Shown here piece after piece: positions 4,291-63,982 of a stretch of DNA of 64,000 nucleotides. Position 1 is the first letter of the stretch; each line of letters begins with the position of its first letter. The notes under the pieces are model-generated. The model was not told the DNA's origin. It was given only the letters and a program-made list of their open reading frames with translations, and searched no databases. This stretch comes from Lingula anatina (taxonomy: Eukaryota; Animalia; Brachiopoda). Location of the stretch: contig CM120649.1 of the NCBI GenBank assembly GCA_051362555.1, positions 11,222,001 to 11,286,000 of the forward strand. Direction: 5' to 3'. Both the position numbers and the translations under genes were made by a program.

Positions 4291-7200
4291 GCACTTTTAC
4301 CGATAACACGATAAGTGGAAAACCATTTTACCTTTTGACTTGAAACTTGCAGAACTGATGAATATTCATAATACGCAGGTCAAGTTCGAAAATCAGCATG
4401 ATCGGGTCACTTTTAGGGAATTTATGCTGTTTTTTCACTTTTTTCAGCATATATGCAGCACCGATAACACGATAAGTGAAAAACCATTTTACCTTTTGAC
4501 TTGAAACTTACAGAACTGATGAATATTCATAATACGCAAGTCGAGTTCGAAAATCAGCATGATCGGGTCATTTTTAGGGAAGTTATGCTGTTTTTTTTCA
4601 CTTTTTTCAGCATAAATGCAGCACCGATAACACGATAAGTGAAAAACCGTTTTACCTTTTGGCTTGAAACTTACAGAACTGATGAATATTCATAATACAC
4701 AAGTCGAGTTCGAAAATCGGCATGATCGGGCCATGTTTAGGGGAGTTATGCGGTTTCTTTCACTTTTTTCAGCATAAATGCAGCACCGATAACACGATAA
4801 GTGAAAAACCGTTTTACCTTTTGGCTTGAAACTTACAGAACTGATGAATATTCATAATACACAAGTCGAGTTCGAAAATCAGCATGATCGGGCCATTTTT
4901 AGGGGAGTTATGCGGTTTTTTCATTTTTTTCAGCATAAATGCAACACCGATAACACGATAAGTGAAAAACCGTTTTACCTTTTGGCTTGAAACTTACAGA
5001 ACTGATGAATATTCTTAATACGCAGGTCAAGTTCGAAAATCAGCATGATCGGGCCATATTTGTGGAAGTTATGCTGCTTTTTCACTATTTCAGCATATGT
5101 GCAACACCGATAACACATTTCAAGGAAAATTAATTGGCCAATCGTCTTGAAATTCACAGGGTGATCAAATATTCTAAAATACAGATGAGGTTCGAAAATA
5201 AGCTTGATCGGTTCAGTTTTGGTGAAATTGTGCCTTTTTTTGTATATGAGTCTTTTTTCCTCGGATTTAATTCTTAGGCATGTTAACAATCTCATTTGTG
5301 AACTAATTAGTAATGTAAAGGTGTTCTTTTGACATTTTCTGCATCTTAACAATATTGTTAGTTGATTATATAAAAATGATGGTAAACCTGTTATTGTGCA
5401 TTGTGTAATAAAGTGCCAAAAATGGAAATAAACTCATATCTTTACAGTTTGTCAGATTCAATCATTCACCATGTTCAGAATCTCAGAATGGAACAAATTG
5501 GACATTTAAAATTGTTCTATTGATATTTTTCCTATGTCAACAACTTTCTTAGTTGATCATTTAAAAACGACAGTAAATTGATTATTTTGATATATGTAAA
5601 AAAAAGTGTTGAAAGTGGAAAGAAATTCATTTCAGTACAGTTATCTCTTGTGTACATTTTGGCATTTTGAAGTTGTGACTCTGAACTTCCATGGCCCTGA
5701 AGACCTTTCCATATCAAATTTTCTGAATATCCATGATATTTTTATTTTATTATTAAAAATTGATGGTCATTATGCTGTTATGCATTATGTAATATGGTAT
5801 CAAAATTTAAGACAACCCCATTTTAGACAATGCCTCCATAGTGACCATTAAAGGAAAACCAAGTCACTTACTCTTCTCAAACTTATAGAAATGTAGTATA
5901 GCACTAAATTATAGCTTCAGTTGGAAAAGCTGTTATATCGGTTAACTTTCTTGGAAATTATATAGTTTTTTGTTACAATTAAAATTTTCACATATTAACA
6001 TTTTCAAGGTGTGACTTAGTCTTTGAACTTCCATTGGCTTGAATACCATTGCTAGTCACATCTTTTGAATAGCAATGATACATTTACTTTATTATTAAAA
6101 ATTGATGGCCATTGTGCTGTTAAGCATTATGTTAAATTGCATAAAAGATGAAAAAAAACCTTTTTTGGACATCGCTGCTAGGATGACCATTAAGGAAAAA
6201 CCATTTTACTTATGATATTCTAACTTACTGAAAAGTTTCATAGGACTGAAGTGTAGCTTGTGTTGGAAATCAGTGTGATTGTTTTCTGTATTGTAAGCAT
6301 TGCAGCTGTATGGAGTGCTATATGGGGCTACTGTTTATGGATGGTGGTAATTGTCCCTTGGGATAATCACTAGCTAAATTCAGAGCTATAAAATTACTTG
6401 CCTAATTGATTTTCAAGTGCCCATTAAATAAGATTACATAAAACACACGTTGAGATTTCCCATTCAAGTCCTATAGGTTAAGCTCTCTTAACTGTGTCAC
6501 ATAATTAGGAATTGGTGATAATTATGCAGGTAAATCTTGTTTAATATTGCAAATAAGTTTACAAAAGAAAAAAAAAATTGTAATGCCAACATTAATGCTA
6601 CAGATGAATAACAGTGCCTTATTATCCTCAAACACATTGGGGTTATTCATATCATGTTAATACAGCAAGATTAAAAGTTTGAATAGCAGCTTTATTGGAA
6701 TTTTTTTTTTTTTTTTGTTTTCTTTTTAATTTTTTTCTAAACACTGGCATTTTCAACTCCCATCCACCTGAAGCTCTTCAGATTTTCTGTATTTCCACAT
6801 AAGCAGTTGCATAGGTTTTTATGTCTTTAAACATTATGTAATATTATTTTATGCACTGTCAACATTTTTCAAATATGGGGATTTTCATTATGTGAATTTG
6901 AACTCTCATAGTCCAGAAACTGTTATCTTATTGCAGGGGTAGATTGAGGCCGCCTTCTGGGTCTTTCAGATGACGGTCAGATTTTAAAGTTTACATTGAC
7001 TGGTATCAATTTTTTTGTGTTGGAAGACCATCAAAAGTGTAGGATGGATCAACAAAGATACTTTGGAATACTGTCAGAAAATATCTCTGGATCTGCTCCT
7101 GTTATTGACCATGTTATCTGTTGTGCATGATTAAAAATCAGTGTTAACTGACTGTGTTATTATAAGCATTATTTATTATTGCATCAAAATTGACAAAATG

Positions 7201-41294: not shown

Positions 41295-42464
41295 CTAAAA
41301 TTTCTCTTCCTCAAGATAATCTTTAGTCCCTTGAGATTCTACTGACCTCTTCTTCAATGTAGCTATATTGATGGCCGACTGACTGATGTTTCCTTTTTGT
41401 GGGTTATTGGAGCGCAACATATTGGTATATGCTTGTCTGACTTCCGGGATACGTAGGCCATATATGATAGGGTCCAGAAGCGGGTTCAGCATGTACAAGT
41501 AAGTGACAACGACGTAAACAATGTCAAAATTCTTAGGGACAGGCGACGAGATTAATTCGAATGAGAAAACAATGGCAAAAGCCACTACCCCGGCACTCCA
41601 GAAGATAAAGACGGTGGCCCACAAAATTGCTATAGTTAGACTTGTCTTGAAGGCTTTTCTCGCCATGCCCTTCGATGGACCTTGTGTCATCTGTTTCCAC
41701 GCTTTGTAGAGGAGTAAAGCCAGCATGACCGTGTTGACAACGAATGCTATGGCAGTTATTATATTGCCAGTTCCACTGAGGGCTAAATTCACTGACGGAG
41801 ACATCAGAGTAGCTAAGCAACCATCTTGGGGTCTCTTTATATAGTTAAAAATGATTCCTAGTGAGAAGGAGACCACTGGGATCAGGTAGGACAAGATCAC
41901 GAAAACAGCCGTTGGCTTCTTGTTGTACTTCTTCGTAAGATCTAAGGGATGCCACACAGTGGTGAGTTGGTGGTAGACAAGAGACGTGGTGGCAATCAAT
42001 GGTAACAAAGTGAAATAAATCGTGAGAGCAACCATAAACCTCTCAAAGCAAGCTAAGTTTATTAAACCAAATTGGACATTCCCATCGGAATCACGGGCGA
42101 TCGCGTCTTCACCAAATGCCACAGTGGTAGCGTTCTGTGATAGGTTGATTGTGTCATGAAGGACAAACACACCGTCTACTGATTCTCTATGGTTCTGGAA
42201 AGGTGGAATCATCGTCTGAATGTGAATATTGACGCATATTGTTATTGCCATGGTCACGGCGAGTATTAGGTCTGACACTGCCAAATTCACCAAGTTGATT
42301 TGGAATGTTGTAAGGGGCCTTGTCAAGCGCCCGAGTGCTGCCAAAGAAACACTGTTCATCATTACAGCGATAACAGATAGCGTAAGAAGGATCTCCCGAG
42401 ACAGCGGTGAAAGCGTCTTTTCCAACCGTGCGATGTAGATCTCAAAATCGGTAGCATTAAACAT
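41295..42464 (-). CDS. Class A orphan GPCR, copy 4
   Basis: 7TM ORF. The ATG homologous to the other copies is at 42464 (MFNATD); an in-frame upstream ATG exists at 42554. Confidence 0.9.
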   Translation of the reverse strand: MFNATDFEIYIARLEKTLSPLSREILLTLSVIAVMMNSVSLAALGRLTRPLTTFQINLVNLAVSDLILAVTMAITICVNIHIQTMIPPFQNHRESVDGVFVLHDTINLSQNATTVAFGEDAIARDSDGNVQFGLINLACFERFMVALTIYFTLLPLIATTSLVYHQLTTVWHPLDLTKKYNKKPTAVFVILSYLIPVVSFSLGIIFNYIKRPQDGCLATLMSPSVNLALSGTGNIITAIAFVVNTVMLALLLYKAWKQMTQGPSKGMARKAFKTSLTIAILWATVFIFWSAGVVAFAIVFSFELISSPVPKNFDIVYVVVTYLYMLNPLLDPIIYGLRIPEVRQAYTNMLRSNNPQKGNISQSAINIATLKKRSVESQGTKDYLEEEKF

Positions 42465-44846
42465 TGTGAGGTTGGTCAGTGTCAGCCACGGAGGTGTAAC
42501 TAAACCAAGCCTTACTGTGATCCCCTTACATACAAATTTTAAACGATACAACATGAGTGGTCCATTATTGAGGAAGGTAAAGAAGTTTAACCAGAAACTT
42601 ATATGAGTACCAATTTTTATTCATCTTTATTCAATGAAAACGTTTTTATCAGTACAATGTGCTACATGAGGTATAATTGGCATAATTCTTTAATCATATC
42701 TTGACTGATGAAATAATAACCCTCTTGTCGACTAGGGTTGCAAGCTTTCTCCTACTGTTACAGATAAAAAAAATACAGTTTACGCGTTACCGCCACTTGT
42801 TATTAAGGGTTATTTGGCGCTTAGTGAAGGAGTCGTAAAGATAATGATCACAATTAGTGTACATTGTACTCATTCATGTACTCTGCAAGGGGTTTACCGT
42901 CTAAAATTTTTCTTGGAAAATAGAAATTCTCCATACACGAGTCATTGTTCGTCCCGTTTCTGCATTCAGACACGATGTTTAATTCCAATTTCAATTTGAT
43001 AGCTAAGTGAAACCATAGCAATTGCCACGCAGTAGCGGTGGGGTGTCAGGGGAAAAACTTTAAAAAAAAAGAAAAGAAAACGCAGATTAAACCACAGGCT
43101 CCAGTAGAAATGTGCTGCTTTATAATGGTTATCCTAAATACAAATATAAAAATAAAAATTTGCTTTCTTTGCGCCTGAATAAAAAATCAGTTCACGATTT
43201 AAACACTAGCGCTTCATACGAATTGGTTAAGTTCTTGAAATGAGATGATTAACGTTTTAAGAGGTTTCTTGAGATAAATTAATTCCGTGTACATTATGTA
43301 ACAATACATTGGTTTGGCATTTTTTGGACACATTATCATCACAAAGATTCGAATTCTAACGCTTTTTATTTTCTGGAAAAAAAGCCCCCCCCCCCCCCCC
43401 CCTCAATTAAAAAAGTATCGGTGGGTTATAACAGAAATAGTTGCGTGTACGATTGCAAAATCACAGAACAATCATAGATTCCCGAAAAAGTGGAAGGTCA
43501 CGACAGGGTAAACGTGCATGTAAATAAATATGCATGTAAATAAAAACGCTATAGTTATCGTGCTGGATATGGAATCGGGATGGCACGAGAACGAAATTGG
43601 CCTCGAGTTGGACCTGGCAATTTTTCAAACACTTTTCCAAACACATACAAACGATACATCAATCCAAATTTTTAAGAAACAAAATGAACTATTAATAAAC
43701 GTCTTACTATTTATTGAAGTATTATACATTAAAATCTTGGGATCTATTTCCTTGATAATTCACTTTATCAATTTTACAGTACCACATACAGGGTACCGTT
43801 ATTATGTCTATTGCATGCATGTCCATACCCGGTACCTACATACGGTGCCAAGTAAAAACACGCAGTGGCGTCATTTTTTTAGCCTAACACGAAAAGAGCA
43901 AGACATGGTCTATGTGAATACTGCTTTCCTTTTCAACATATGGAGTTTTTCAACAAAAAAAATTATTTGATTCATTTCAAAAGTATAATGAAAATATACA
44001 ATTAATTGAGTGTGTAGTGAATATTTATTGTAATGTTAACCATTTTCATGGGCTCTGTATGCTAAATGACAAACTTACTTTATAAATATGGTAACTCAAA
44101 ATAAACATTCAATACGTCTAAAGGCTATCAACGACATTCAAACAAAATTTTACACCAATAGATGCCACCTTTTAATTTAGAGTCAGTTGAATAAGTCTAT
44201 GTCCATCCTACTCAGCCTCATTTGCATCATCTAGTGCTGAAGTCTACCATATGGAATTTTGCATTTAAATATAATAGGACAATTATTTTGATGTGTTCTT
44301 TTACAGCTTTGTAGGCGTTAGGTACTCCAGCCCTGTTGATTTTAGTTGAAAGGATCTACATAACAGGCCTGATTATTTGCCGTGGGTTTGAAAATGTTTT
44401 TTTTTTTATGTGTGCAGTCGTTCTCCATAGACGTGTGGACACTAGCCCCACAATATTTCAAACACTCCAGTCCCACGTGCAAGATGCGACGAGGTGAGAG
44501 TTCCAGTGTTTAAACCAAATCTTTACTAAAATAAGCATTCCTAATGTATTTGGTCAAATCCACCTACTACTTGTTAATTTTTTTTCCACCCACAGACTAC
44601 ACAGGGACGTATTTAAGTGGTCACTCACAATTATCGGACTACGTTGTTTGACCATCAAGTTGGACAGGTGGATTGCCACACGCCTAGCTATACTATGTTT
44701 GTACCCTAGAAATATAAGTCTTAAACCGAATAAATATCATACTAAACATTGTCTACTTCAAAAGATTCATTGCCTGAGATTCTACTGACCTCTTATTCAA
44801 TGTATTTATTTATATGAAAATAATTGAATTATAGCCTCAAAATACC

Positions 44847-45962
44847 TTAAAAGTCCTTGGATTTGTTTTTTATGTTCCTGGATGATCGAGCCTTATTATT
44901 AAAGCCCAGCATACGCTTATATGCTTTTCTGACTTCCTGGATGCGCACGCCATATATGATAGGGTCCAGCAGCGGATTCAGCATATACAAGTTAATAGCA
45001 ACGGTATCAACAATGCCGAAATTTTCAGGGAGGGGCGAAGGGATCAGGTCAAATGCGAAAATTATTGAAAAAGTCACGACGCCGGTGCCCCAGAAGACGA
45101 AAACGGTACCCCACAGCGTCGCTACAGTTAGACTTACTTTGACAGTCGACACTTTCACAGAGACGCTCGCTGATGGACTTTGTGCCAGTTGTTTCCGAGT
45201 TTTGTAGAGGAGTAAGGCCAACATCGCCGTGTTCCCAACGAACGCTATGGCTGTTGTTATACTGACAGTTCCACTGACGGCTAAATACACTGGCTGAGAC
45301 ATCAGAGTAGCTAAGCAACCATCTTGGGGTTCCTTTATGTACTTGTAGGTGATTCCCGCGGAGAAGGAGACCGCAGGGATGAGATAGGACAAGATCACGA
45401 AAAACGCCGTTGGCTTCTTGTTGACCTTCATGGTCAAATCCAAGGGATACCATACTATAGTGAGTTGGTGGTATACGAGCGAGGTAGTAGCCATCAGAGG
45501 CAATAGAGTGAAATAACTCATCAGACAAACGGTAAACCTCTCAAGGCAAGCTAAGCTTATTAAACCAACTGGGGTTTTCTCGTCGAAATCATGGGCAGTC
45601 GCTTCTTCACCAAGTGCCATACTTGTAGCGTTCTCAGTGAAGTTCGCCGTCTCATCAAAGACATAAGCAACGTCCTGTGAATCTCTAGGGTTCAGAGAAA
45701 GTGAAATCTTCGTCTGAATGTAAATATTGACGCATATTGCTACCGCCATAGTCACGGCAAGGATAAGGTCTGACACTGCCAAATTCACCAAATTGATTTG
45801 GAAAGTTGTAACGGGTCTTGTCAACCGACCCAAGGCTGCCAACGAAATGCTGTTCATCAGTACGGCGATCACTGATAGACTAAGTAGGGTCTCCCGCGAC
45901 GGTGGTAAAAGCGCTTGTTCCAACTGCGAGATGTAGATCTCAAAATTAGACGAATTCAACAT
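44847..45962 (-). CDS. Class A orphan GPCR, copy 5 (replaced C-terminal tail)
   Basis: 371-aa 7TM ORF with NLAVSD, YHQL and LNPLLDPIIYGVR. The ancestral tail sequence is left non-coding at about 44772-44803. Confidence 0.9.
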   Translation of the reverse strand: MLNSSNFEIYISQLEQALLPPSRETLLSLSVIAVLMNSISLAALGRLTRPVTTFQINLVNLAVSDLILAVTMAVAICVNIYIQTKISLSLNPRDSQDVAYVFDETANFTENATSMALGEEATAHDFDEKTPVGLISLACLERFTVCLMSYFTLLPLMATTSLVYHQLTIVWYPLDLTMKVNKKPTAFFVILSYLIPAVSFSAGITYKYIKEPQDGCLATLMSQPVYLAVSGTVSITTAIAFVGNTAMLALLLYKTRKQLAQSPSASVSVKVSTVKVSLTVATLWGTVFVFWGTGVVTFSIIFAFDLIPSPLPENFGIVDTVAINLYMLNPLLDPIIYGVRIQEVRKAYKRMLGFNNKARSSRNIKNKSKDF

Positions 45963-46652
45963 TTTGAGTTTGGTCAGTGTCAGCCACGGAGGTATATCCT
46001 ACTAAAACTCACGTGGAAGTGATCGGCTTAAACACAGGTTTGATCTAAATGCAGAATTTGGTTAGCAGCAGTATAAGGTCACTTATACTAGATAATAGAC
46101 GAGTAAAAATACAAGTGATGCATTCTTACCAAAGACTTCTTTGATAAATGCCGTTTTCTTCGTCATCAATGCTATTTGCAAAATTAGGAATAATTGGAAT
46201 AATTCAAAGTCATATCTAGGCTGAGGATAATAACCAAAAATCCTCGTATCGATTCGGATAGCGGGTTTTCTACTGTCACAAATAAAAGCAGTCTAGGGGT
46301 TTCCGTCATTAGGGGCTATTTGGTGTTACATAAAGAAGTCCTCAAGATTTGATCACTATTAGTAAATTATTTTTTCCTTTTTGCTTAAGATTTGTATAAC
46401 ATTTGTGAATATTTTTGGTTTTTAATATTGTCACAAATCACCTGTTCTTGTGACCCAGAAACATTTTAGTTTTATGTTCTTTTTGTTAGTTTTATCATGC
46501 CATTATATTCATACTCAAAATACATTTCTGCAAGTGATACCTATAGTTTTTATAAGCAGATGTCATCTTCAAAACACCGTCTTTAGAGATCAATCGGACA
46601 AAGCTGCGTTAACAACCGGCTGGAAATTAGTCAAATTGTTCATGTAATTTGT

Positions 46653-50019: not shown

Positions 50020-50508
50020 TTAAAAGTCTGGATCTGAATCATCATCCCATTCACAAGTCTCTACACCACCCTCAAATTCCACCTCTACGTCATACTCGTA
50101 ACCAGGATCTCCAGGCTTCTTTCTGTTCTTCTCAAACGACTCCTCCATGACAGCTTTTTTAGCAGCCAATGTCCTATCATCTGCCTTGTTCAAGTCCTCC
50201 TCTGGATCGATAGTTTCTAGTTTCTCTCTCTCTCTTAAACTGTCCTCCAAACTTATCCCTTTCATTTTATCCTGAATCACAGTCAGCAGTTTCTCCAGCT
50301 GTCTCAAGGGGATGTTTTGTAAATATTTTTCATGTTTTTTATTGAGTCTCAGTTCATCAACTGCGCGTTGTATCCCAGAATTCTTGGTGAAGTTCCGCAC
50401 AGGCATTGTGCGACGGTGAAGTTTGTTCTTAGATACAATGAGGTAAGTTACGATGATAGCTGGGGGGTTGAAACGTATTCCACATTTCTTCAGTTGAATG
50501 TCTGTCAT
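50020..50508 (-). CDS. CEP19: Centrosomal protein of 19 kDa
   Basis: 162 aa with KKCGIRFNPPAI, RTMPVRNF, LRQLEKL, IDPEEDLNK, FEKN and YDVEVEF, all recognisable CEP19 motifs. A splice acceptor near 50549 implies upstream non-coding exon(s) at about 51457-51590. Confidence 0.96.
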   Translation of the reverse strand: MTDIQLKKCGIRFNPPAIIVTYLIVSKNKLHRRTMPVRNFTKNSGIQRAVDELRLNKKHEKYLQNIPLRQLEKLLTVIQDKMKGISLEDSLREREKLETIDPEEDLNKADDRTLAAKKAVMEESFEKNRKKPGDPGYEYDVEVEFEGGVETCEWDDDSDPDF

Positions 50509-51145
50509 ATTTGCTTTTAGCTTTGGCTTTACATTGGCCTGTTAAAATCTGCAAAAATTGAACAAGAAAATGATGTAAGCAAAAACTAGACAGCATTTCA
50601 AAGCACAGAACTCTATGGACGGAAAAAAGAAAGGCAATAGTACTTCTTTAAGGGTTTAAAACAAAAACAAAATTATTTTAAAACTACCAGGATAGGATTA
50701 AGTTCACAAAACTGTAATCACTTCTTTTCCTCCTGAAAATGTCTTTGTCAAAATAAAAAAAAAGACTTCTCGCCCACTAACAAACAGACAGACAAATGCT
50801 GATAAGAACATAACCTCCTTTGATTAGGTTACAGGCAATAATTATAGCAGTCAGCATACAGATGCTAATAAAATCTTATGGAAAAAAATTAATGTGTTAG
50901 AGAAGGTGTGAGGCACATCGTTTTTGAACTGATGTCAAGATGTAGGTAATGACCCATTTGTGTGGAATTCCTACTGAAAAATATGTGTATAATTAATATG
51001 GATTAAATAAGAGAAGGCTTTCTACCCCCGAAACATAGCACAGCTAAGCTTACAGCACTTGTGCGCCGATGAAGTGAAATGTAAACCCCTTCCCACCCCA
51101 ATACGGTACACACACAGTAAAATTCATTTCCTAGGCAACTGAATA

Positions 51146-52375: not shown

Positions 52376-53081
52376 ATGACGTTCTGGCCGCAGCTGTTAG
52401 ATCTGTCCAGAGATGAGTGTAAACGTATTTTGCGCCGCCTGGAACTGGAGGCCTACTCGAACCTGGTGTCTGCTTTCCGTGCACAAGGGGACCTCACCAA
52501 GGATAAGAAAAAACTGCTGCTAGACCTGCAGCAGTCGTTGAGGTAAGATGCAATCTTTGTGTGAAAGGTTCCCCCCCCCCAAAAAAAAAAAAAAAAAAAA
52601 AAAAAGTTAAGGGGGGAAATCTTTTGCAATTAAAGGTGATATTATTGTTGGCCTAAGACTTTTCAGATATGCATGAGGTTTTTAGTTTATTTTTCCAATC
52701 ATCTTTTAGGTGCATCCACTTTTATGTAGGTATTGCAGATTTAATCAGTGTTCATCTTGTTTGTTTATTAGTATCAGATTTGCACAGTTGCAGCTAAAAA
52801 AGACATTTCAACACTAGAACTGTCATGTTTAAAAATTTAAGCACTTTACCTATTCAAAATAGTTTCTGTACAGTTGTGTGATTTTTTTTTTTTTTTTTTT
52901 TTTTTTGTATTTAAAAAATAAATATTTAATTAATTATGTATTTTTAGCATTTCAACAGAACGGCACAGAGCTGAAGTCAGGAGAGCTGTAAATGATGAAA
53001 AACTGACAACAATTGCCGATTGGTATGTAATGGTCATTTTTATACCTGCTGACTTTAAAACAACTTTTTAATATGATTCTT

Positions 53082-53125
<44 letters not shown>

Positions 53126-55847
53126 AGTAGGACATACAAAACTTTTAGGTAATTCAAATCTAAAATATCTAAATTTTGAATTTACTGTTTTCTTATTCAG
53201 CATAGCATACATAACTTTTTAACTAAAAATGTATTCATAACACTGAAATTCCAACTGTTTTCCCATTCAGCATGTCTGGGCCCAACGTCAGTTCCGAGTG
53301 GTTGGTAGAGGGGAGGCGCTTGGTACCTCTAATGCCACGACTGGTGCCCCAGACTGCATTTACCCTGGCAGCCAATCACGCTGCTCAAGTACAAGCTGAG
53401 AAAAACGCCATGATGCCTCTGCCATCAGTCACAGGAAATAAAGATTGTAAGTTTTAGTTTCTAAGGAGTAGAAGTGAGAATGTAAAATATAGTGAATTAT
53501 TTAAAAAAATACTTTTAAGACAGTTAAAACATGTTTTTAACCAGTGAGGCACAATATTTCCACCCTCCATCCACTTGCTTTTATCACATGACTGACTCAT
53601 GTGTTCTTGATGAGAGGTGTAGTGTTGTAAGACTTTCCTTGCAAATGTTGGGAGTTAACTTTTTGTTGACCTTGTTATTCCAGTGAACAAAGCACCCAGC
53701 ACGCCAGTGCCACCTGGTGTGACAGTGGCAAAGATTAGCCAGGTGGCGCCACCAGACTCTCCACAGGTGGTCCCTGCCTCTGGTCCTGTGACCCCCACAC
53801 CAGTGGCCAGTGTCAAACAGCGTCCATCTAGTCCAGCGTCCAATGTGGTCGTCCTGCCCAGTGGGATGTCAATACACATTAAAGGTGGGGGATATGTCAA
53901 TATATTAATACATTTTGTTTTTTTAAAATCGGGTATGGTAATCACTTGATCTCTTCTGTGGGGGAAATTTGTGAATTTAACAAATTCTTTATTTTTTATG
54001 TCATAAATTCTGAAAAATAGAATAATCCTATTTAGTGATGGTAAGATAATGAAAATTAAAACAGGCTACCTTATACTTATTTTCTGTATACTCAAAGCAT
54101 TTGGTTATAAATACTAAATAGAAACATTTTTTTAATTGTCCCAAAATTATGTATTTGAAAGATTTTTAAATGAAGTAAGGACTTTTTGCATTGACAGGTT
54201 TGTCTTTATGAGTAGTAACATATAGTAAACGGAAAATGCAATTGAAAGTGAAAGCAATATGCAATCTACTCTTTTTGATGAGTGTCAAGTGAAAAATAAA
54301 CTTCTTGTCATTTCAGGGGGAATAAACACAGAAGAGGAAGATGAATTCCCTTCACGGAAACGCAAACGCAGCAATTCAGTGGAGGGGTTTCTTCCTCGCA
54401 CTGTCACCACGGTATCCCTGCCCACGCCCAAGGTGACATACACCACGACCTCCAGCTCCTCTAACACCATCCACGGTATTTCCCCCATGAAGATCACCAT
54501 CTCTAAGAGTCCACAGAAGATGCAGAACACTGTCACACCCTCACAGAAGGTAAATATGGGGAATGCGGTTTACTCGTAATCACTTGGATCCTTTCAATGT
54601 GGAAAAATTATCAATCTTTCAGAAACATAATTTGGGAGTCGTTTAAAATATAATTTTTGGTATTTATGGTGTTTTTACTGCATAGAAGTATAAGGTAGCC
54701 TACTTTTCAGTTTTTTAGCTACCACTCAAAGATAAATGTTCTAATTTCAAGATTTATGACTTGGAAAAATACCTTAGCTGTAAAATTCACAGTTTCCCCC
54801 CAAGAAAAGATCAAGTCATTACCAGACCATTAGGTAATATGTTGGACATTCATCTTTGTTGCTCTATGGTGTAAAATTTTTCATACAGGAATGCTGAGAA
54901 CAGTCAACAGGAATACTGTAACAGTTATAGGCACTGGATCAGGTGTTGAACATTTATATTAATTTTTTCTGAAAATTACAGCCAATTTTCATTTATCAGC
55001 ATACCATATCCAAAACTGTCTAGAAAATTTCTATCTATAAACCAGTCATGAGTTCTAAATTTTTTATCTTTACCTCCTGATGTGAAGACCACCAGTCTCT
55101 ATCTCCATTTTGAGTGGCTAAAACAATTAAAACCAGAACTCAACAGTTGTTTTTGTGATTGTAATTTTGGTGACAGTTTTGGATATGGCATACCTCAATG
55201 ACTTATTGTAGATTACTGAAATTATCAGGAAAAAAGTTTTAACACTAATTCCTTGACTCAAGTTAAAGCATTAAAAGATGGACTTCTCATCTGTATGTTT
55301 TAACCACTGTCCACTTCAGGTCATCCTAGTGTCCAGCTCTGGTCAGTCCAGCACCCCTAACATTCTCCAGAAGTCCATCACTGTGCCTATAATCAAGACG
55401 ACAGCTACCACAGCGACGGCAGCCATAGGATCGTACCCAAAGACTATTGTGTCTCCGGCTAGCTCCTCCACCATGGGGAGTATTGCCTCAGTGGTGTCTT
55501 CACAGGGTATGGTATAGATTTGTATTTAGGAATTATTATGATTTGATTCATTTAGTGTCAGTTTGAAATGCATTTTTCATTTTAAAATTCATATTTGAAT
55601 TTATGTTTACTTTGATTCACATTTGATGGCAATGGGATTTAAGTTTAAATCTAGTTAAACTTCATTCATTAAAAATTTACATTAAATTTTAATTGAAGTT
55701 AATATTGATCTGAAGTTTTGATTTATATTAAACTTTGATAAGGAAAGCAATTGGAGTTAATTTTCACTTCTTGAGGTCAACTCAGGGTCAGTTCTTACCA
55801 GGTTTAAGTCCCACCCTACACGTACAGTAGTGCACACTCACATGCTT

Positions 55848-55893
<46 letters not shown>

Positions 55894-58800
55894 GCATTCA
55901 CAGACATAGGGCTGTAATATGTGAGTTTTCCAGGCTCACACCCCAGTGGCTTGAGTATAACCAGACCAAGACCTTAGACCATACAAATGTCTATTATGTA
56001 CTCTATTTTCCAGGTTTCCATCCCAGTGGCTTGAGTATAACCAGACCAAGACCTAAGACCATACAAATGCGTAGTATGTACTCTATTTTGCAGGTTTCCA
56101 TCCCAGTGGCTTGAGTATAACCAGACCAAGACCTAAGACCATACAAATGCGTAGTATGTACTCTATTTTCCAGGTTTCCATCCCAGTGGCTTGAGTATAA
56201 CCAGACCAAGACCTAAGACCATACAAATGCGTAGTATGTACTCTATTTTCCAGGTTTCCACCCCAGTGGCTTGAGTATAACTAGACCCAAGACCTAAGAC
56301 CATAGTTACATATATGTAGTATGTACTTTATTTTCCAGGCTCACACCCTAGTGGCTTGAGTATAACCAGACCAAGACCTAAGACCATACAAATGCGTAGT
56401 ATGAACTCTATTTTCCAGGTTTCCATCCCAGTGGCTTGAGTATAACCAGACCAAGACCTAAGACCATACAAATGCGTAGTATGTACTCTATTTTCCAGGT
56501 TTCCATCCAAGTGGCTTGAGTATAACCAGACCAAGACCTAAGACCATACAAATGCGTAGTATGTACTCTATTTTCCAGGTTTCCACCCCAGTGGCTTGAG
56601 TATAACTAGACCCAAGACCTAAGACCATAGTTACATATATGTAGTATGTACTTTATTTTCCAGGCTCACACCCCAGTGGCTTGAGTATAACCAGACCAAG
56701 ACCTAAGACCATACAAACAAGGCCAAAAGTTCAACAGGTAGGGATAATTTTGTGACCTATGGAGCAGAAAAATTATGAAATACATTAATTTTTATTTATG
56801 TCAAATTGATGTCAGAATGTGACTTAATGTAAAGTATTTAGGTGTAACAGTATATCTTCACTGTTTGAATTGAACCAATTATTTTTATTAACCAAAATAT
56901 GAAATCTTGTTACCAACCAAAAAGGGACAGAATCTTTTATTCTAAACACACTCAGTCTGAAATGAGAGAATATATGATTCACCCAGTAGTGAGATAACAC
57001 ATTATAAGAGTAAAAATTCATATAATACTGGATGTAATGCAGCAACAAAATATTAAACTTTGACAAATAACTAAGTAATTTAAAATTAATAAATGGATAG
57101 ACTGACAGACATAAAAAAAACATCAAAGAATTTCCAGCTTAATAATCACAGATACGAAAGGAAGACCTCACTCTCTCTCTCTCTCTCTCTCTCTGATTTT
57201 CTCACTATCCGCAGGTTGGCAGTCATAAGCCAGGTATAGTAATCCCAATGTCTCCACAACAGCAGCCATCTCCACAGAGTGTCCCTGTACAGCTGAAGTC
57301 CATGGCCAAACCCACCATACAGATCAAACAGGAAGGAGGTATGACGCACCCTGAAGTTCATTAGTTTAAAGTGTCATTCATTTTGCCTTTGAGGGTGTGG
57401 AGGGGAGGGGGAGACCGGGGGGGGGGGGGGGAGCCAAACCCAATAAGATAAAGCAGGAAGGAGGTATGACAGATGGCAAAGATAAACTACATAAATTGAG
57501 ATATTCTTCCCATGTAGTCACACACTAGGTAGTGTAGTGAAAAGTACACCTCAGGCTCAAATTAGATAAGGTTTTAATAAATATATCTGACTGTGTTTTA
57601 GGCATGAAGATCATTGCTCACAGTGTGCTCTCTGCTGGCAGTAAGATAAACTACAGGGGCTTATAAATTAATATCTGTTTTCTAGGCATGAAGATCATCA
57701 CTCACAGTGTGCCCTCTGCAGGCAGTAAGATCCTCCCTAAGCCTCAGTTCGCCACTGGCGCCAGTGGGAACCAGGTGGTGGTGGTCACCAGTGGTGCTCA
57801 GAGCTCTCTGGCAGTGGTGACCAAAGCTTCAGTGGGCGTGGCAGGTTGGTATGCACATATGAGCACTAAGAGTTTGTTTGCGTGTCTTTGGGTATGCATG
57901 AGTGTGTGTGTGTATGTGTGTGTGTGTGTGTGTTCACAGAAAGCCTGAGAGTACAAATATGTGGAGTTTGAATCATTGCAATGTGTTTTGATGTAAAGAT
58001 AAAAAACAATGGATCCTTTATACAATAATTTATATGGTACAAAGAATTATAATTATAATAATTGTAATCTGTCCATTCCAGGCAGTCACAGTGTGCCCAG
58101 TAAAGTGTTGAATATCACCACTCAGGGAGGCAAGGTGATAGCAGCCTCAACATCACGCGGGGGCAGTGGCTCTCCTAATGTGGTCACCGTGAACCCCAAG
58201 ACACTACAGCTGACCTCGGTCAGAGCTGGGACCAGTAATTGTGAGTATTGACCACCAGACTGACCAAGGTTTATGTGACAGGTAGACTATGGATCAGTGG
58301 TTTGTTGGTGACAATAACACTTGAGAAGCATGAGTGGATACCACGCACACCTGTGACCTTGTTAACTAGTGGTTCAACTGACTTATATGGGCGGCGGTTT
58401 ATACAAAAATGCAAAACACGATTAGTCGTCATCGTTATCAGATCAGTCGAAATGAAAACACGATTAGTCGTCGTCGTTATCAGATCAGAAGGCAAAATAC
58501 GACTAGTAGTCGTCAAAACGCAACTAGTCATCAAAACGCGACTAGTCATCAAAACGCAACTAGTCATCATCAAAACGCAACTTGTCATCATCAAAACGCA
58601 ACTAGTCATCATCAAAACGCAACTTGTCATCAAAACGCGATTTGACGCCAGATGGCGCCCATTGTGCGAAAATCTAGGCCAAGTCACATGATCCACAGTG
58701 ATCAAAATGGCGGACGTTATTGAAGCAGCATTATCATATTCCTCGCTCGAACTCGAGAATTATCTCTACGCGTACAATCTAATAATGATATTATATATAT

Positions 58801-60674
58801 AATAATATCTGGAACTTGTGAAATGAGTACAACAATAAAGCAGTGCTTCACAAGTGTGTGTTTTTGTTTTTTTTAATTTATAACATGTCCAAATTATTTA
58901 ATAAATTATTTAATTATTTATTATTTCGAGAATTATCTCTACGCGTACAATCTAATAATGATATTATATATATAATAATATCTCGAACTCGAGATAATTC
59001 TCGAGTTCGAGCGAGGAATATGATAATGCTGTTCAATAACGTCCGCCATTTTGATCACTGTGGATCATGTGACTTGGCCTAGATTTTCGTACAATGGGCG
59101 CCATCTGGCGTCAAATCGCGTTTTGATGACAAGTTGCGTTTTGATGATGACTAGTTGCGTTTTGATGATGACAAGTTGCGTTTTGATGATGACTAGTTGC
59201 GTTTTGATGACTAGTTGCGCTTTGACGACTACTAGTCGTATTTTGCCTTCTGATCTGATAACGATGACGACTAATCGTGTTTTGCATTTTTGTATAAACC
59301 GCCGCCCATAGACTTATACTGTGTTCAATATTGAGAATGTTGTTGTGTACCTATAGCCACTAACTTGCAAAGTTTAACATAAATATCTGTATCTTTTGTT
59401 CTCAGCACACACCGTGGTGTAAATATTTAGAGTTTATTAAAAGTATACTCAGTTGTCATAATGACATAACTTATACATATGCACTGACCTCGTTTAGGAC
59501 AGTGACCTGTGTCACCTCTCTGATCCTCTTGTTTGAGTGGTTAATCTTTTGTTTATTTCCAGTCTCCACAGTGCAGAAGACTGTCTCTCAGGTGCCAGGG
59601 AAGCCCAATGTCATTGTGGTCCAGAAGGGGACGGCACGTGGGAGCTCCACCCCCTCCACACCTCCCATACAGATCAAGGTGCCCAACCAGGGAGCAACGG
59701 CCACAGCCAGTCCATTTGAGAAGGTAAAATTCCTAAATTTAATGTTACTTATGATTATTAATTAATTTGATATATTTATTTGGAAGGCTGTGACTCCTTA
59801 AATATGTTTGTTTTCGATCTAGGATGGTTCAGAATAGTAGGCCACTTTGGCATTAGATTGCTGCTTTCATTAAAGAAATGATAATGAGAAAGCCTAAGTT
59901 TACAAACCTTACTTTAACCATTTCACTCACTTGACCCTAGCCAGAAAACTGACCAATGTTGAGTTAGAGTATTAATATAAAAATGGCAGATGACAGTGAC
60001 AAAAAAATAAATTTTCACATTGTTTACAAGTTTGTTATTATTTACCTTTATTTTTTTATTTTCTCAATAAAATGAAGTCAATTACCATTCTACAGGTTAA
60101 CAGACTACAGGCCGTATACTAAAAAAAAAGTTATTATTGAATAATCCTGGTAGGATAAACAATTTATATTAGGTTGATGAATGAAATATAACATAATGGG
60201 AAATATAATGCAGTGTGGTTTATGTGGTAGGTGAATTGGGGAAATTTATGAGTGAATAGAAAGTAGAATATGTGACAGAAAATGTGCTTGGTTGATTTCT
60301 GGTCTGGTTGCTTGGTTGATTTATTGACCAGTTGGTTTGTTGAAACAATTTTGTAGTGTTGAAGTTTTGGTAACAGGGATCTTTTTCTCGTCAGGAATTT
60401 GGAACTTTCCTCAATAAACAAGACGTCCAGCGTCAGACCTCATGGCCTCAGAAGGTCAGCATTCGTGTGCAGGACACTCGTGCCAGTGAAACAAGACAGG
60501 ACACCACCAAAGCAGAGCTAGTGCGTTCAGATTCTGAGCCATCAGGGCGGTCCTCCATTCTGGCTGAGCTAATACAGGCAGTGGGTATTGGGCCAGACTC
60601 AGGGTCTGGGTCTAATTCTGGGAGAGCAACACCTGTTGGGGAGGAGGGGTTTCAGGCAGTTTCACAGCAAAAAG
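52376..60674 (+). CDS. EMSY: BRCA2-interacting transcriptional repressor EMSY (ENT domain), 3'-incomplete
   Basis: Exons 52376-52542, 52948-53022, 53271-53446, 53684-53884, 54317-54549, 55320-55506, 56664-56737, 57215-57338, 57686-57844, 58082-58240, 59563-59723 and 60395-60674 are in phase. The N-terminus MTFWPQLLDLSRDECKRILRRLELEAY..AQGDLTK..SISTERHRAEVRRAVNDE..MSGPN..EGRRLVPLMPRLVPQTAFT is the EMSY ENT domain. No stop codon is reached. Confidence 0.95.
55925..56715 (+). repeat. 80/85-bp minisatellite derived from an EMSY acceptor and exon start, 10 units
   Basis: Post-CAG unit starts at 55934, 56014, 56094, 56174, 56254, 56339, 56419, 56499, 56579 and 56664. The last unit continues into the constitutive exon. 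Confidence 0.95.
58386..59310. mobile_element. Foldback element with TATGG termini and a 6-bp target duplication (IS3EU-like, non-autonomous)
   Basis: TATGGGCGGCGGTTTATAC...GTATAAACCGCCGCCCATA, with GACTTA at 58380-58385 and 59311-59316. Inverted arms are about 58386-58765 and 58991-59310 and contain 18-21-bp GTCATCAAAACGCAACT repeats. Confidence 0.88.
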
Positions 60675-61039: not shown

Positions 61040-63982
61040 TTGTACCACCAGCGTAGGCGCTGGCGGTACACATGGTTTTAGTCCCGACCCGTATGTTCCG
61101 CCGGCTCCTGCGGCTCCGCCGGCTCCTGTGGCTCCTGCGGCTCCGTCGCCAAGTCACCGTTACCGCTTCTCCTCCTAGACGGTAAGGGCCTCCATACCCA
61201 TCTCTTGGATTTAGGTCACCTATAATCTCAACTCGTTCCACGTAAAATTTGGGCTTTGTCGGTATTGGGGTCTAGGTGTGGTACTCATTGCAATGCACCC
61301 TTGTCCAAAAATGGCAAAATTAAATGCTAATTATCTCCCCTACGGAAGGAATTATGGGAAAAATTTCTACAGACAGCTTTCCAAAAGTCATATGTGTAGA
61401 TTTCAAATATGCCCTTGGATTTGACCTTTGACCTTTATTTCAAGGTCAAATGGGCCAAAATTTAAAAAAAAACAAAATTTTTGCTGAAAAAAAAATTATT
61501 TGCGGTCTTATTCAGACACCACAAAGACTTAACTAATAATATTAATGGAAAGTGTTACCCTTCGGGTCATCTTTCATCTCCGTGAATTTGGGGTCAATCG
61601 GTGCATTTTCACGGGAGTAGCGGCCATAAGATATCGAAACTGAAAACTGTCTCTAATTCGGGAACCGTTAATGCTAGACACCCATTCTTTTTTGCATTTT
61701 GTAGGGCATTTAAAGCCCAACACTGGAGGTGGTCTCCGTTTTTTTGTATTCCATACGGTTTTCGAGTTACGCTGTATCAAAAAGTACATATTGGTGGTGA
61801 AAGCTAAATGTGCAGTACGGTAATGGATAAAAAATTTTGAACTCCGGAAAAATAAAACATAAGGCTTGGCAAAGCAGACAACTTGTGGTCAAAAATGACA
61901 TTATTTCATCAAATTTGAACATCTGGAACTTCAGAGCACCTCCCATTTCAAGAATTTTGACCAAAATGACCTTTTCTTTATTTTAATTAATTTTTTCTGT
62001 AGGAAATTTATGGCACATTATGATAACTCCAAAATTATAACATTTAGTCCCTTATATCTCCAAAACTGGCAGAGATAGGTCCATAGTTACTATTGAAGTT
62101 GAATAGGAAGTCATATACTGGCAATCTAAATGTGACCTTAAAATTTACCTTTGACCTACTTTTCACCATGAACTGAACTTTGCAAATTTTGCTTCCCTTT
62201 TATCTCCAAAACTGGCAGAGATAGGTCCATAGTTACTATTGAACTTGAGTAGAAAGTCATATACTGGCAATCTACATGTGACCTTAAAATTGACCTTTGA
62301 CCTACTTTTCACCATGAACTGAACTTTGGAAATTTTGCTTCCCTTTTATCTCCAAAACTGGCAGAGATAGGTCCATAGTCTCTATTGAACTTGAATAGGA
62401 AGTCATATGCTGGCAATCTACATGTGACCTTAAAATTGACCTTTCACCTACTTTTCACCATGAACTGAACTTTGCAAATTTTGCTTCCCTTTTATCTCCA
62501 AAACTGGCAGAGATAGGTCCATAGTCTCTATTGAACTTGAATAGGAAGACATATACTGGCAATCTAAATGTGACCTTTAAATTGACCTTTGACCTACTTT
62601 TCACCATGAACTGAACTTTGCAAATTTTGCTTCCCTTTTATCTCCAAAACTGGCAGAGATAGGTCCATAGTCTCTATTGAACTTGAATAGGAAGTCATAT
62701 ACTGGCAATCTACATGTGACCTTAAAATTGACCTTTGACCTACTTTTCACCATGAACTGAACTTTGCAAATTTTGATTCTCTTTTATCTCCAAAACTGGC
62801 AGAGATAGGTCCATAGTTACTATTGAAGTTGAATAGGAAGTCATATACTGGCAATCTAAATGTGACCTTAAAATTGACCTTTGACCTACTTTTCACCAAG
62901 AACTGAACTTTGGAAATTTTGCTTCCCTTTTATCTCCAAAGTTACGCTGTATCAAACAGTACATATTGGTGGTGAAAGCAAAATGTGCAGTACGGTAATG
63001 GATAATAAATTTTGAACTCCGGAAAAATAAAACATAAGGCTTGGCAAAGCAGACAACTTGTGGTCAAAAATGACATTATTTCATCAAATTTGAACATCTG
63101 GAACTTCAGAGCACCTCCCATTTCAAGAATTTTGACCAAAATGACCTTTATTTTAATTAATTTTTTCTATAGGAAATTTATGGCACATTATTGTAACTCC
63201 AAAATTATAACATTTAGTCCCTTATCTCTCCAAAACTGGCAGAGATAGGTCCATAGTCTCTATTGAACTTGAATAGGAAGTCATATACTGGCAATCTACA
63301 TGTGACCTTAAAATTGACCTTTGACCTACTTTTCACCATGAACTGAACTTTGCAAATTTTGATTCCCTTTTATCTCCAAAACTGGCAGAGATAGGTCCAT
63401 AGTTACTATTGAACTTGAATAGGAAGTCATATACTGGCAATCTTAAAGTGACCTTAAAATTGACCTTTGACCTACTTTTCACCATGAACTGAACTTTGCA
63501 TATTTTGCTTCCCCTTTATCTCTAAAACTGGCAGAGATAGGTCCATAGTTACTATTGAACATGAATAGGAAGTCATATACTGGCAATCTAAGTGTGACCT
63601 TGAAATTGACCTTTGACCTACTTATTATCATGAACTGAACTCTGCTAATTTCTTTCTCTTTTAACTCCAAACCTGGCAGAGATAGGTCCATAGTTACTAT
63701 TGAAGTTGAATAGGAAGTCATATACTGGCAATTTACTGTGACCTTGGAATTGACCTTTGACCTACCTTACGATGAACTTAACTTTGATCGTACCATTTTT
63801 AGTAATATATATATCTTTTGCATATTTTGAAAATTCTTGTTGATTGCATTTTTACAGCTTGTCAAGCACAAGACTGGTGGCTGTGTTCCTTATTTTGTAT
63901 ATGTGGGGGTCTATACGAATGCGTTTGCTCCAGCTGGTGGTACAATATTCGGAGGCGGTATCGCCTCTCTGATCCTCTAGTT
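61040..63982 (+). mobile_element. Second Helentron/HINE-like element, in an EMSY intron
   Basis: 5' hairpin TGTACCACCAGCG-tagg-CGCTGGCGGTACA (61041-61070), 9-bp GGCTCC(T/G)NC repeats and a 146-bp array. The 3' end has subTIR GCTGGTGGTACAA (63933-63945), hairpin GGAGGCG-gtat-CGCCTCT and terminal CTAGTT. Confidence 0.82.
62050..63790. repeat. 146-bp tandem repeat in two blocks, with an internal duplication at about 1.17-kb spacing
   Basis: CAAAACTGGCAGAG-like at 62061, 62207, 62353, 62499, 62645, 62791, then 63231, 63377, 63523 and about 63668. Region 62941-63230 recopies about 61766-62060. Confidence 0.95.

What the first reader, a model, noticed from the sequence alone, without database searches (positions are those of the whole stretch)
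55925..56737. EMSY splice-site minisatellite: repeated 60-nt in-frame exon plus 20-nt GT..AG spacer
Seen: ten tandem copies of the acceptor and start of one EMSY exon. In six units (56014, 56094, 56174, 56339, 56419, 56499) the 80 bp split into a stop-free 60-nt phase-1/phase-1 segment, x(F/S)HPSGLSITRPRPKTIQMR, and 20 nt reading GTATGTACTCTATTTTCCAG (single-base variants in two units). That spacer is a donor fused to an acceptor. Unit 1 has an in-frame stop and no donor, and the two 85-bp units are frameshifted. Without using these donors, only the tenth acceptor gives protein. Known: 20 nt is below the usual metazoan minimum intron size, and such tight spacing sterically prevents joining of adjacent exons. 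Inference: the array could act as cassette exons that tune peptide copy number and NMD, as true micro-introns, or as a run of nine decoy acceptors that must be skipped.
Basis: partly seen in the sequence, partly recalled or inferred. Interest (0 to 1): 0.78.

Follow-up and report, generated by a model that had tools for sequence, protein, structure and literature searches.

The report
Silent splice-acceptor "mirage" in brachiopod EMSY
In the EMSY gene of a lamp shell (brachiopod), the end of an intron plus the start of the next exon is repeated nine extra times, but the RNA reads examined join the last, real copy and keep the 20-base spacers, so this is likely a harmless example of a repeat type already known from lancelets, not a splicing switch.

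Summary
The array is real and is as described: ten 80/85-nt copies of the acceptor and first 54 nt of EMSY coding exon 7 in Lingula. It is not an assembly artefact. Unspliced sense reads in three RNA runs hold the tandem junctions, and two DNA runs hold repeated units. In X12 and X13, 0 of 66 listed reads entering from exon 55320-55506 show a decoy letter; X11 adds 28 that agree, checked less strictly. All 5 reads passing unit position 54 in X12 and X13 keep the spacer, and no spacer-removed joint is listed. The donor-like hexamer pairs with U1 more weakly than all 12 real EMSY donors and differs in another lineage. Simulated boundary duplications give an open in-frame exon plus GT..AG spacer in 1,940 of 8,610 cases. 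It is a new member of a known kind, the amphioxus 'mirage' minisatellites (PMC3087553). The scan has noted these before, in this genome and others. Limits: the array-bearing RNA comes from one study, about 6% of each run, without NMD block. Use below a few percent, or in other tissues, is not excluded.

The parts
55320..55506 (+). Upstream EMSY coding exon 6 (187 nt, ends in phase 1)
   Evidence: Fits P0121; its 3' end is the loose-end consensus on 28, 27, 39 and 27 reads of X11, X14, X12 and X13
55507..56663 (+). Functional intron (1,157 nt), which includes units 1-9
   Evidence: Junction reads; RefSeq models P0001 and P0121 have one copy of the peptide
55908..55933 (+). Unique left flank ending in acceptor 1; likely a diverged copy of the same intron end as the spacers
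   Evidence: Alignment A1; shuffle support is weak, 242 of 5,000
55934..56013 (+). Unit 1: decoy with an in-frame stop and no GT at the donor place
   Evidence: its diagnostic letter is in 0 of 36 X12 reads and 1 of 34 X13 reads, the latter best explained as an unspliced read
56014..56253 (+). Units 2-4: 80-nt F-type decoys (60 nt open plus 20-nt GT..AG spacer)
   Evidence: F-type letters are accounted for by spacer-holding reads
56254..56338 (+). Unit 5: 85-nt shifted decoy, identical to unit 9
56339..56418 (+). Unit 6: S-type decoy; its acceptor context differs from the real one at 1 of 248 nt upstream and 1 of 54 nt downstream
   Evidence: not used by the reads that reach position 55
56419..56578 (+). 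Units 7-8: 80-nt F-type decoys
56579..56663 (+). Unit 9: 85-nt decoy whose tail holds the pyrimidine tract and AG of the real exon; predicted branch-like motif at -41
   Evidence: the motif is recalled consensus; the branch point is untested
56664..56737 (+). Unit 10 = authentic exon 7 (74 nt, phase 1 to phase 0), followed by the strongest predicted donor of the gene
57215..57338 (+). Downstream exon 8; a minor in-frame acceptor at 57263 is also used
   Evidence: Loose ends run exon 7 into exon 8; joint 56737 to 57263 in 4 X11 reads

Best explanation
The array is a tandem amplification of about 26 nt of intron end plus 54 nt of EMSY exon 7 (a 'mirage' minisatellite); the RNA reads examined skip the nine extra copies as intron, likely because only the last copy is followed by a strong donor. 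Shown: the unit anatomy, that unspliced reads keep the spacers, and that spliced reads enter the authentic copy. Inferred: a first duplication across the intron/exon border, then growth by unequal exchange (325-nt higher-order repeat; units 3, 4 and 7 identical, 5 and 9 identical). Inferred: the acceptor is chosen by exon definition. Acceptors 6 and 10 are nearly identical until unit position 54, so the deciding signal probably lies after it, in the exon's last 20 nt and its CAG|GT donor. Inferred: the donor-like hexamer in the spacer is incidental sequence of the copied intron end. The 60-nt segment is open because 54 nt of it are coding in the same phase.
For: RNA. X12: 39 listed reads come from exon 6. 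F-type letters are in 1 of 44 reads (it has 6 other differences). The unit-1 letter is in 0 of 36. Depth falls from 35 at position 54 to 1, and that read runs on into the spacer. X13: 27 listed reads come from exon 6. F-type letters are in 4 of 34, matching 4 of the 5 spacer-side reads. Depth falls from 29 to 4, with no drop at position 60 (arithmetic). 18 and 14 loose ends continue with the real exon end and exon 8. RNA. X11: 28 exon-6 reads; array reads keep the spacer (go-back joints in 4 and 6 reads, 4 loose ends); no spacer-removed joint is listed. Array read density is about that of the next intron, 1.6 against 1.3 per 100 nt, from my approximate counts. All laid RNA reads are on one strand. 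2 of 2 Lingula RefSeq models have one copy. Donor: U1 duplex -3.3 kcal/mol, against -4.2 to -11.2 for 12 real donors, with exon 7's the strongest; 97 intronic GT sites in 5,319 positions score as well. In DNA run X3, another lineage, the hexamer reads GTACTT. Chance: 1,940 of 8,610 simulated duplications give the same look, 668 with a donor of 6 or more matches in 11. Precedent: PMC3087553 section 16.
Against: By simple match count the array donor (6 of 11) is inside the range of real EMSY donors (5-9), and GTATGT starts a real EMSY intron at 53023. Six of nine decoys are open and in frame. X3 keeps the 60+20 geometry and the GT. The array-bearing RNA is three samples of one study, about 6 in 100 of each run, polyA, tissue unknown, no NMD block. 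Counts are reads, not fragments (21-23 start places). The tool lists joints and loose ends only from 3 reads. Each lay used one unit as reference, so unit assignment rests on diagnostic letters. Unit 6 can be told apart only in reads reaching position 55 (32 listed, about 59 by depth; bounds 9% and 5%). The RNA animals' array alleles may differ from the window's. Homology of the left flank to the spacer is weak statistically (242 and 344 of 5,000 shuffles). Exon definition was not tested.
Confidence: 0.9

Rival explanations
1. Low-level or tissue-restricted cassette exons: a unit's 60 nt is included using its weak donor and an acceptor two or more units on (intron of 100 nt or more), adding 20-residue repeats to EMSY.
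For: Six units are open and phase-symmetric; routes with introns of 100-590 nt exist. The donor has 6 of 11 consensus matches. The model is proposed for amphioxus mirages.
Against: Such mRNA would escape NMD and be visible, yet 0 of 66 (X12, X13) and no listed row in X11 show it. The donor is the weakest by U1 pairing and differs in X3. RefSeq models have one copy.
Confidence: 0.06
2. Leaky decoys: some splicing goes to acceptors 1-9, reads through to a stop and is cleared by NMD, so that array length lowers EMSY output.
For: Read-through gives a stop from 9 of 9 decoys. Steady-state polyA RNA would hide cleared products. Acceptor 6 is almost identical to acceptor 10.
Against: No junction read continues into a spacer: the 1 and 4 continuing reads are accounted for by unspliced reads. 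Array depth is about intron depth. NMD is rarely complete (general knowledge).
Confidence: 0.03
3. True 20-nt spliceosomal micro-introns that join successive 60-nt exons.
For: The spacers are GT..AG and in frame. Animals with introns of 22-27 nt median length exist (PMC13644364, abstract).
Against: All reads crossing a spacer keep it: 5 of 5 in X12 and X13, and the listed X11 rows. The abstract finds such introns only in myxobolids and a dicyemid among 51 genomes. EMSY's 11 introns here are 237-1,322 nt. The only branch-like motif in range lies at -37, upstream of the GT.
Confidence: 0.01
4. Assembly artefact.
For: Exact copy number was not checked with long DNA reads.
Against: Tandem junctions of both 80- and 85-nt types occur in raw RNA reads of three samples, and repeated units occur in contigs of DNA runs X3 and X10. 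Units carry distinct variants that recur in reads, for example the unit-6 spacer variant in X13.
Confidence: 0.005

Closest known systems
Amphioxus 'mirage' minisatellites, above all globin BflGb6 (also BflGb9, Adh3); PMC3087553, passages and section 16 read; the original Adh3 paper was not read
   Same: Tandem copies of an intron's 3' end plus the 5' part of the next exon. Copies keep splice signals. Regular splicing is undisturbed. Copy number varies (6 and 3 in BflGb6 haplotypes). Inner units are homogenised.
   Different: A brachiopod, not a cephalochordate. The unit is 80/85 nt rather than 150-160 nt; there are ten copies with a 325-nt higher-order repeat. Six copies happen to carry an in-frame GT 20 nt before the next AG.
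Human CBS 844ins68; PMC2630376, passages read
   Same: A duplicated intron 7/exon 8 junction; the distal site is strongly favoured and normal mRNA is made.
   Different: One extra copy of 68 nt, a polymorphic insertion, against nine extra copies here.
Human F7 IVS7 37-bp VNTR; PMC1557585, abstract read
   Same: A minisatellite spanning an exon-intron border whose identical splice sites normally stay silent.
   Different: Donor side; the site next to the exon is chosen by 5'-to-3' scanning. Here the acceptor side is repeated and the last copy wins.
Ultra-short animal introns of myxobolids and Dicyema; PMC13644364, abstract read
   Same: Length range near 20-27 nt.
   Different: Those are genome-wide and spliced. 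The spacers here are kept in every read that crosses them, in a gene with introns of 237 nt or more.

Membership tests
Mirage minisatellite | Head-to-tail repeat whose unit spans an intron-exon border | tested here: met
   Unit = about 26 nt intron end plus 54 nt exon 7
Mirage minisatellite | Copies keep cryptic splice signals | tested here: met
   9 of 9 decoys keep a pyrimidine tract and AG
Mirage minisatellite | Regular splicing is not disturbed | tested here: met
   0 of 66 junction reads show decoy letters, bound 4.4%; X11 agrees; one study only
Mirage minisatellite | Copy number varies between haplotypes or lineages | tested here: inconclusive
   Ten in the window. X3 shows two unit contigs, each near flank depth (31 and 42 against 37), suggesting two copies. 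X10 shows 19 contigs. Contig depth is not a copy number.
Mirage minisatellite | Concerted evolution of inner units, border units apart | tested here: met
   Units 3, 4 and 7 are identical, 5 and 9 are identical, and unit 1 has private changes; no tree was built
Mirage minisatellite | Somatic length instability (reported for Adh3) | not testable with these tools
   Needs long reads from one animal
Tandem cassette or mutually exclusive exons | Copies are included in mRNA | tested here: not met
   bounds 4.4% for F-type and unit 1, 5-9% for unit 6
Tandem cassette or mutually exclusive exons | Each copy has its own conserved donor | tested here: not met
   Weakest U1 pairing of 13 donors scored; the hexamer differs in unit 1, in the left flank and in X3
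Tandem cassette or mutually exclusive exons | Protein models with extra or alternative copies | tested here: not met
   2 of 2 Lingula models have one copy; these are predicted models
Ultra-short spliceosomal intron | Spacer is removed in RNA | tested here: not met
   5 of 5 crossing reads in X12 and X13 keep it; the X11 rows keep it
Ultra-short spliceosomal intron | Host has generally tiny introns | tested here: not met
   11 EMSY introns are 237-1,322 nt; one gene only, as no genome was held
Ultra-short spliceosomal intron | Branch point inside the intron | tested here: inconclusive
   A motif scan finds a branch-like motif only at -37, upstream of the GT; no lariat data

The most novel reading that the evidence does not exclude
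A mirage caught in the act of exonisation: in some tissue or stage, or below a few percent, the weak donor is used and one to three 60-nt units are spliced in frame across introns of 100 nt or more. Array genotype would then set the number of 20-residue repeats in EMSY. This would be a living case of the exon-and-intron-gain model proposed for amphioxus mirages.
Probability: 0.06. Interest if true: 0.55.

Novelty: new member of a known kind. Interest (0 to 1): 0.13.

Why it matters
As it stands it matters little. It is one more silent mirage, in a genome where the scan has already noted many. Its modest use is as a natural test of acceptor choice. Acceptors 6 and 10 differ at 1 of 248 nt upstream, and the one downstream difference is also carried by an allele of the real exon, yet the reads that can tell them apart use acceptor 10. 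That points to the last 20 exon bases and the donor as the deciding signal, as exon definition predicts, and a small minigene could test it. If rare in-frame inclusion were found, it would show a mirage turning into new exons.

Tried and rejected
No whole genome was held, so intron sizes and mirage frequency could not be measured genome-wide. The run index listed no RNA holder; that blank was not used as evidence, and raw RNA runs were laid instead. X17 gave 5 reads and no usable row. X14 gave 27 exon-6 junction reads but no spacer reads and has other exon letters, so it is not shown to carry the array and was left out of the counts. The C-to-T letter at unit position 11 (18 of 40, 28 of 44 and 15 of 34 reads) matches window unit 6 and first suggested that unit 6 is used. 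Rejected: 34 of 35 X12 reads and 25 of 29 X13 reads that reach position 54 do not go on with the unit's next letters, and in X12 the 18 reads continuing into the real exon end outnumber the 16 C reads. It is an allele of exon 7. One search started the exon fit one base off; its real-donor list was discarded and redone. In one search one acceptor (58086) fits with a mismatch and may be 3 nt off. The canonical joint 56737 to 57215 was not in the joint table (rows near a CT repeat were dropped); it is seen in loose ends. Left-flank homology to the spacer got only weak shuffle support. Literature: 'Lingula' with 'EMSY' gave 0 papers; four VNTR/exon-boundary terms together gave 0; the mirage terms gave 1 paper; the listing held nothing on mirages in Lingula. 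The library lacks most subscription papers. One CBS paper was not held. I did not open the supplement of PMC3087553 that aligns the BflGb6 units; it may show in-frame GTs like those here. No structure or complex prediction was run, as no variant protein is supported.

Full report
OBSERVATION. Tandem Repeats Finder reports an array at 55926-56717 (period 80, 9.8 copies, 90% matches) with a 325-nt higher-order period. Cutting at the acceptors gives ten units: seven of 80 nt, two of 85 nt, and the 74-nt last one. Read-through from acceptors 1-9 meets a stop in 9 of 9 cases. Units 3, 4 and 7 are identical, and so are 5 and 9. The order is S-F-F-F-85, S-F-F-85, S(real).

GENE AND ORGANISM. The exon at 52376 carries an ENT domain. 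The best homologue is Lingula anatina EMSY, which matches the window almost letter for letter in every exon. Twelve exons fit model P0121 with 2 mismatches in 665 residues; the 11 introns are 237-1,322 nt. Both Lingula models (P0001, P0121) join exon 6 to unit 10 to exon 8 and hold the peptide once. These are predicted models, so raw reads were the real test.

RNA TEST, DOWNSTREAM SIDE (unit 10 plus exon 8 as reference; 85% likeness; rows listed from 3 reads). In X11, 52 reads were laid, all on one strand. 28 have exon 6 as a loose end before 56664. About 12 come from the array (my count from the tables), and the listed rows keep the spacer: go-back joints in 4 and 6 reads for the 80- and 85-nt types, and 4 loose ends reading into the spacer. 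No joint that removes the spacer is listed. X11's intron reads lack X3's differences, so X11 is close to the window's lineage. Array read density is about that of the next intron (1.6 against 1.3 per 100 nt), as expected for pre-mRNA. X14 gave 27 reads with the same junction but has other exon letters and no spacer reads, so I left it out. X17 gave 5 reads and was uninformative.

RNA TEST, UPSTREAM SIDE (unique flank plus unit 1 as reference). X12: 45 laid, 39 listed as entering from exon 6. F-type letters are in 1 of 44, and the unit-1 letter in 0 of 36. Depth is 35 at unit position 54 and 1 after it. X13: 37 laid, 27 listed from exon 6. F-type letters are in 4 of 34, the same number as among the 5 spacer-side reads. 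The unit-1 letter is in 1 of 34, and one read reaches into the unique flank. Depth is 29 at position 54 and 4 after it, with no fall at position 60. So all 5 reads that pass position 54 keep the spacer, and all are accounted for as unspliced. 18 and 14 loose ends continue with the real exon end and exon 8. One result first pointed the other way: a T at position 11, the mark of window unit 6, is in 18 of 40, 28 of 44 and 15 of 34 reads. The exits at position 54 show that it is an allele of the real exon. Upper bounds (one-sided 95%, reads not fragments): 4.4% for F-type and unit-1 acceptors (0 of 66), 3.1% with X11 added (0 of 94, less strict), and 5-9% for unit 6. All three array-bearing samples belong to one study; about 6 in 100 of each run was read; tissue is unknown; NMD was not blocked.

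DNA TEST. X3, whose downstream intron differs at 37 letters and 17 gaps over about 290 nt, has a contig spanning unit end, spacer and next unit, and a second unit contig that begins in the unique flank. Each is near the depth of the flanking contig, which suggests two copies (inference). In X3 the spacer keeps its length and its GT but the hexamer reads GTACTT. X10 gives 19 contigs on the unit, some crossing the spacer. The array is therefore no artefact, and it occurs in diverged lineages. The count of ten was not checked independently.

IS THE EXON-PLUS-SPACER LOOK MORE THAN CHANCE? Not by much. Phase and 54 of 60 nt are inherited from the real exon. In 8,610 simulated duplications at the ten other EMSY acceptors, 1,940 gave an open in-frame segment plus a GT..AG spacer, and 668 had a donor with 6 or more of 11 consensus matches. 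Against a recalled U1 5' end, the array donor pairs at -3.3 kcal/mol and the 12 real donors at -4.2 to -11.2; exon 7's own is the strongest. 97 GT sites in 5,319 intron positions do as well as the array donor. Against my reading, its match count of 6 lies within the real range of 5-9, and GTATGT opens a real EMSY intron. The unique flank before unit 1 resembles the spacer but has A where the donor G stands; shuffle support is weak. A recalled branch-point pattern occurs at -37 or -41, upstream of the spacer's GT, which fits an ordinary intron end and not a 20-nt intron.

MECHANISM. Most likely a segment across the intron 6/exon 7 border was duplicated and then amplified by unequal exchange (inferred from the higher-order repeat and from the letter shared by unit 6 and an exon allele). 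The copies are tolerated because they are spliced out (shown within sampling). Acceptor 6 differs from acceptor 10 at 1 of 248 nt upstream and 1 of 54 nt downstream, so the choice probably rests on what follows position 54: the exon's last 20 nt and its strong donor. That is exon definition, inferred and untested.

COMPARISON. [quoted passage not shown] They have 6 and 3 copies in two haplotypes, and RT-PCR suggested no effect on regular splicing (PMC3087553, section 16 read). That is the same architecture and behaviour. Human CBS 844ins68 (PMC2630376, passages) and the F7 IVS7 VNTR (PMC1557585, abstract) are smaller or donor-side parallels. Animal introns under 30 nt were found only in two parasitic lineages among 51 genomes (PMC13644364, abstract). 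I found no paper naming both Lingula and EMSY. The same gene has two more border duplicates in the next intron, so 3 of 24 borders probed are duplicated. I reached the mirage reading, before seeing the scan's notes. Those notes report mirages on other pieces of this genome, and 80 findings in at least 16 genomes hold the same words. They are unchecked and are not counted as support.

VERDICT. Observation confirmed. The decoy reading is supported; the cassette and micro-intron readings are not. New member of a known kind; interest 0.13.

Noticed in passing
window 57433-57470 (+): Donor-side duplicate of the end of EMSY exon 8 in the next intron, 88% over 41 nt, with the donor motif kept; read-through to it meets a stop.
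   Followed up: partly
window 57591-57647 (+): Acceptor-side duplicate of the start of EMSY exon 9, 89% over 57 nt, 84 nt before the real acceptor; read-through meets a stop. Four X14 loose ends match the real copy.
   Followed up: partly
window 56737 to 57263: Alternative in-frame acceptor inside exon 8 that drops 48 nt, in 4 X11 reads.
   Followed up: no
P0121 residues 729-779 (outside the window): The second Lingula EMSY model has 35 extra residues that include a repeat of the preceding stretch. It may be a border duplicate that entered the coding model, or a prediction error.
   Followed up: no
window 56674: A synonymous C/T allele in exon 7 matches the private letter of decoy unit 6, which hints at sequence exchange between array and exon.
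   Followed up: partly
window 56680, 56731, 57226 in X11: A few X11 reads carry letters typical of X14 (6 of 40, 1 of 11, 2 of 13). These may be array variants, pooled animals or cross-over between libraries.
   Followed up: no
window 55951 in X10: One X10 contig joins flank-like letters to unit position 18, as if a first unit had lost its acceptor.
   Followed up: no
window 50020-50541 (-): Single-ORF CEP19 gene lying head to head with EMSY.
   Followed up: no
window 41295-42620 and 44847-45998 (-): Two similar long single ORFs. The first has a 7tm_1 hit just under the curated cut-off; the second has no Pfam hit.
   Followed up: no
window 58271-59350: Inverted pair of short-tandem-repeat blocks in an EMSY intron, likely a foldback-type mobile element.
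   Followed up: no
window 4299-5116 and 62048-63786: Satellite arrays with periods of 161 and 146 nt.
   Followed up: no
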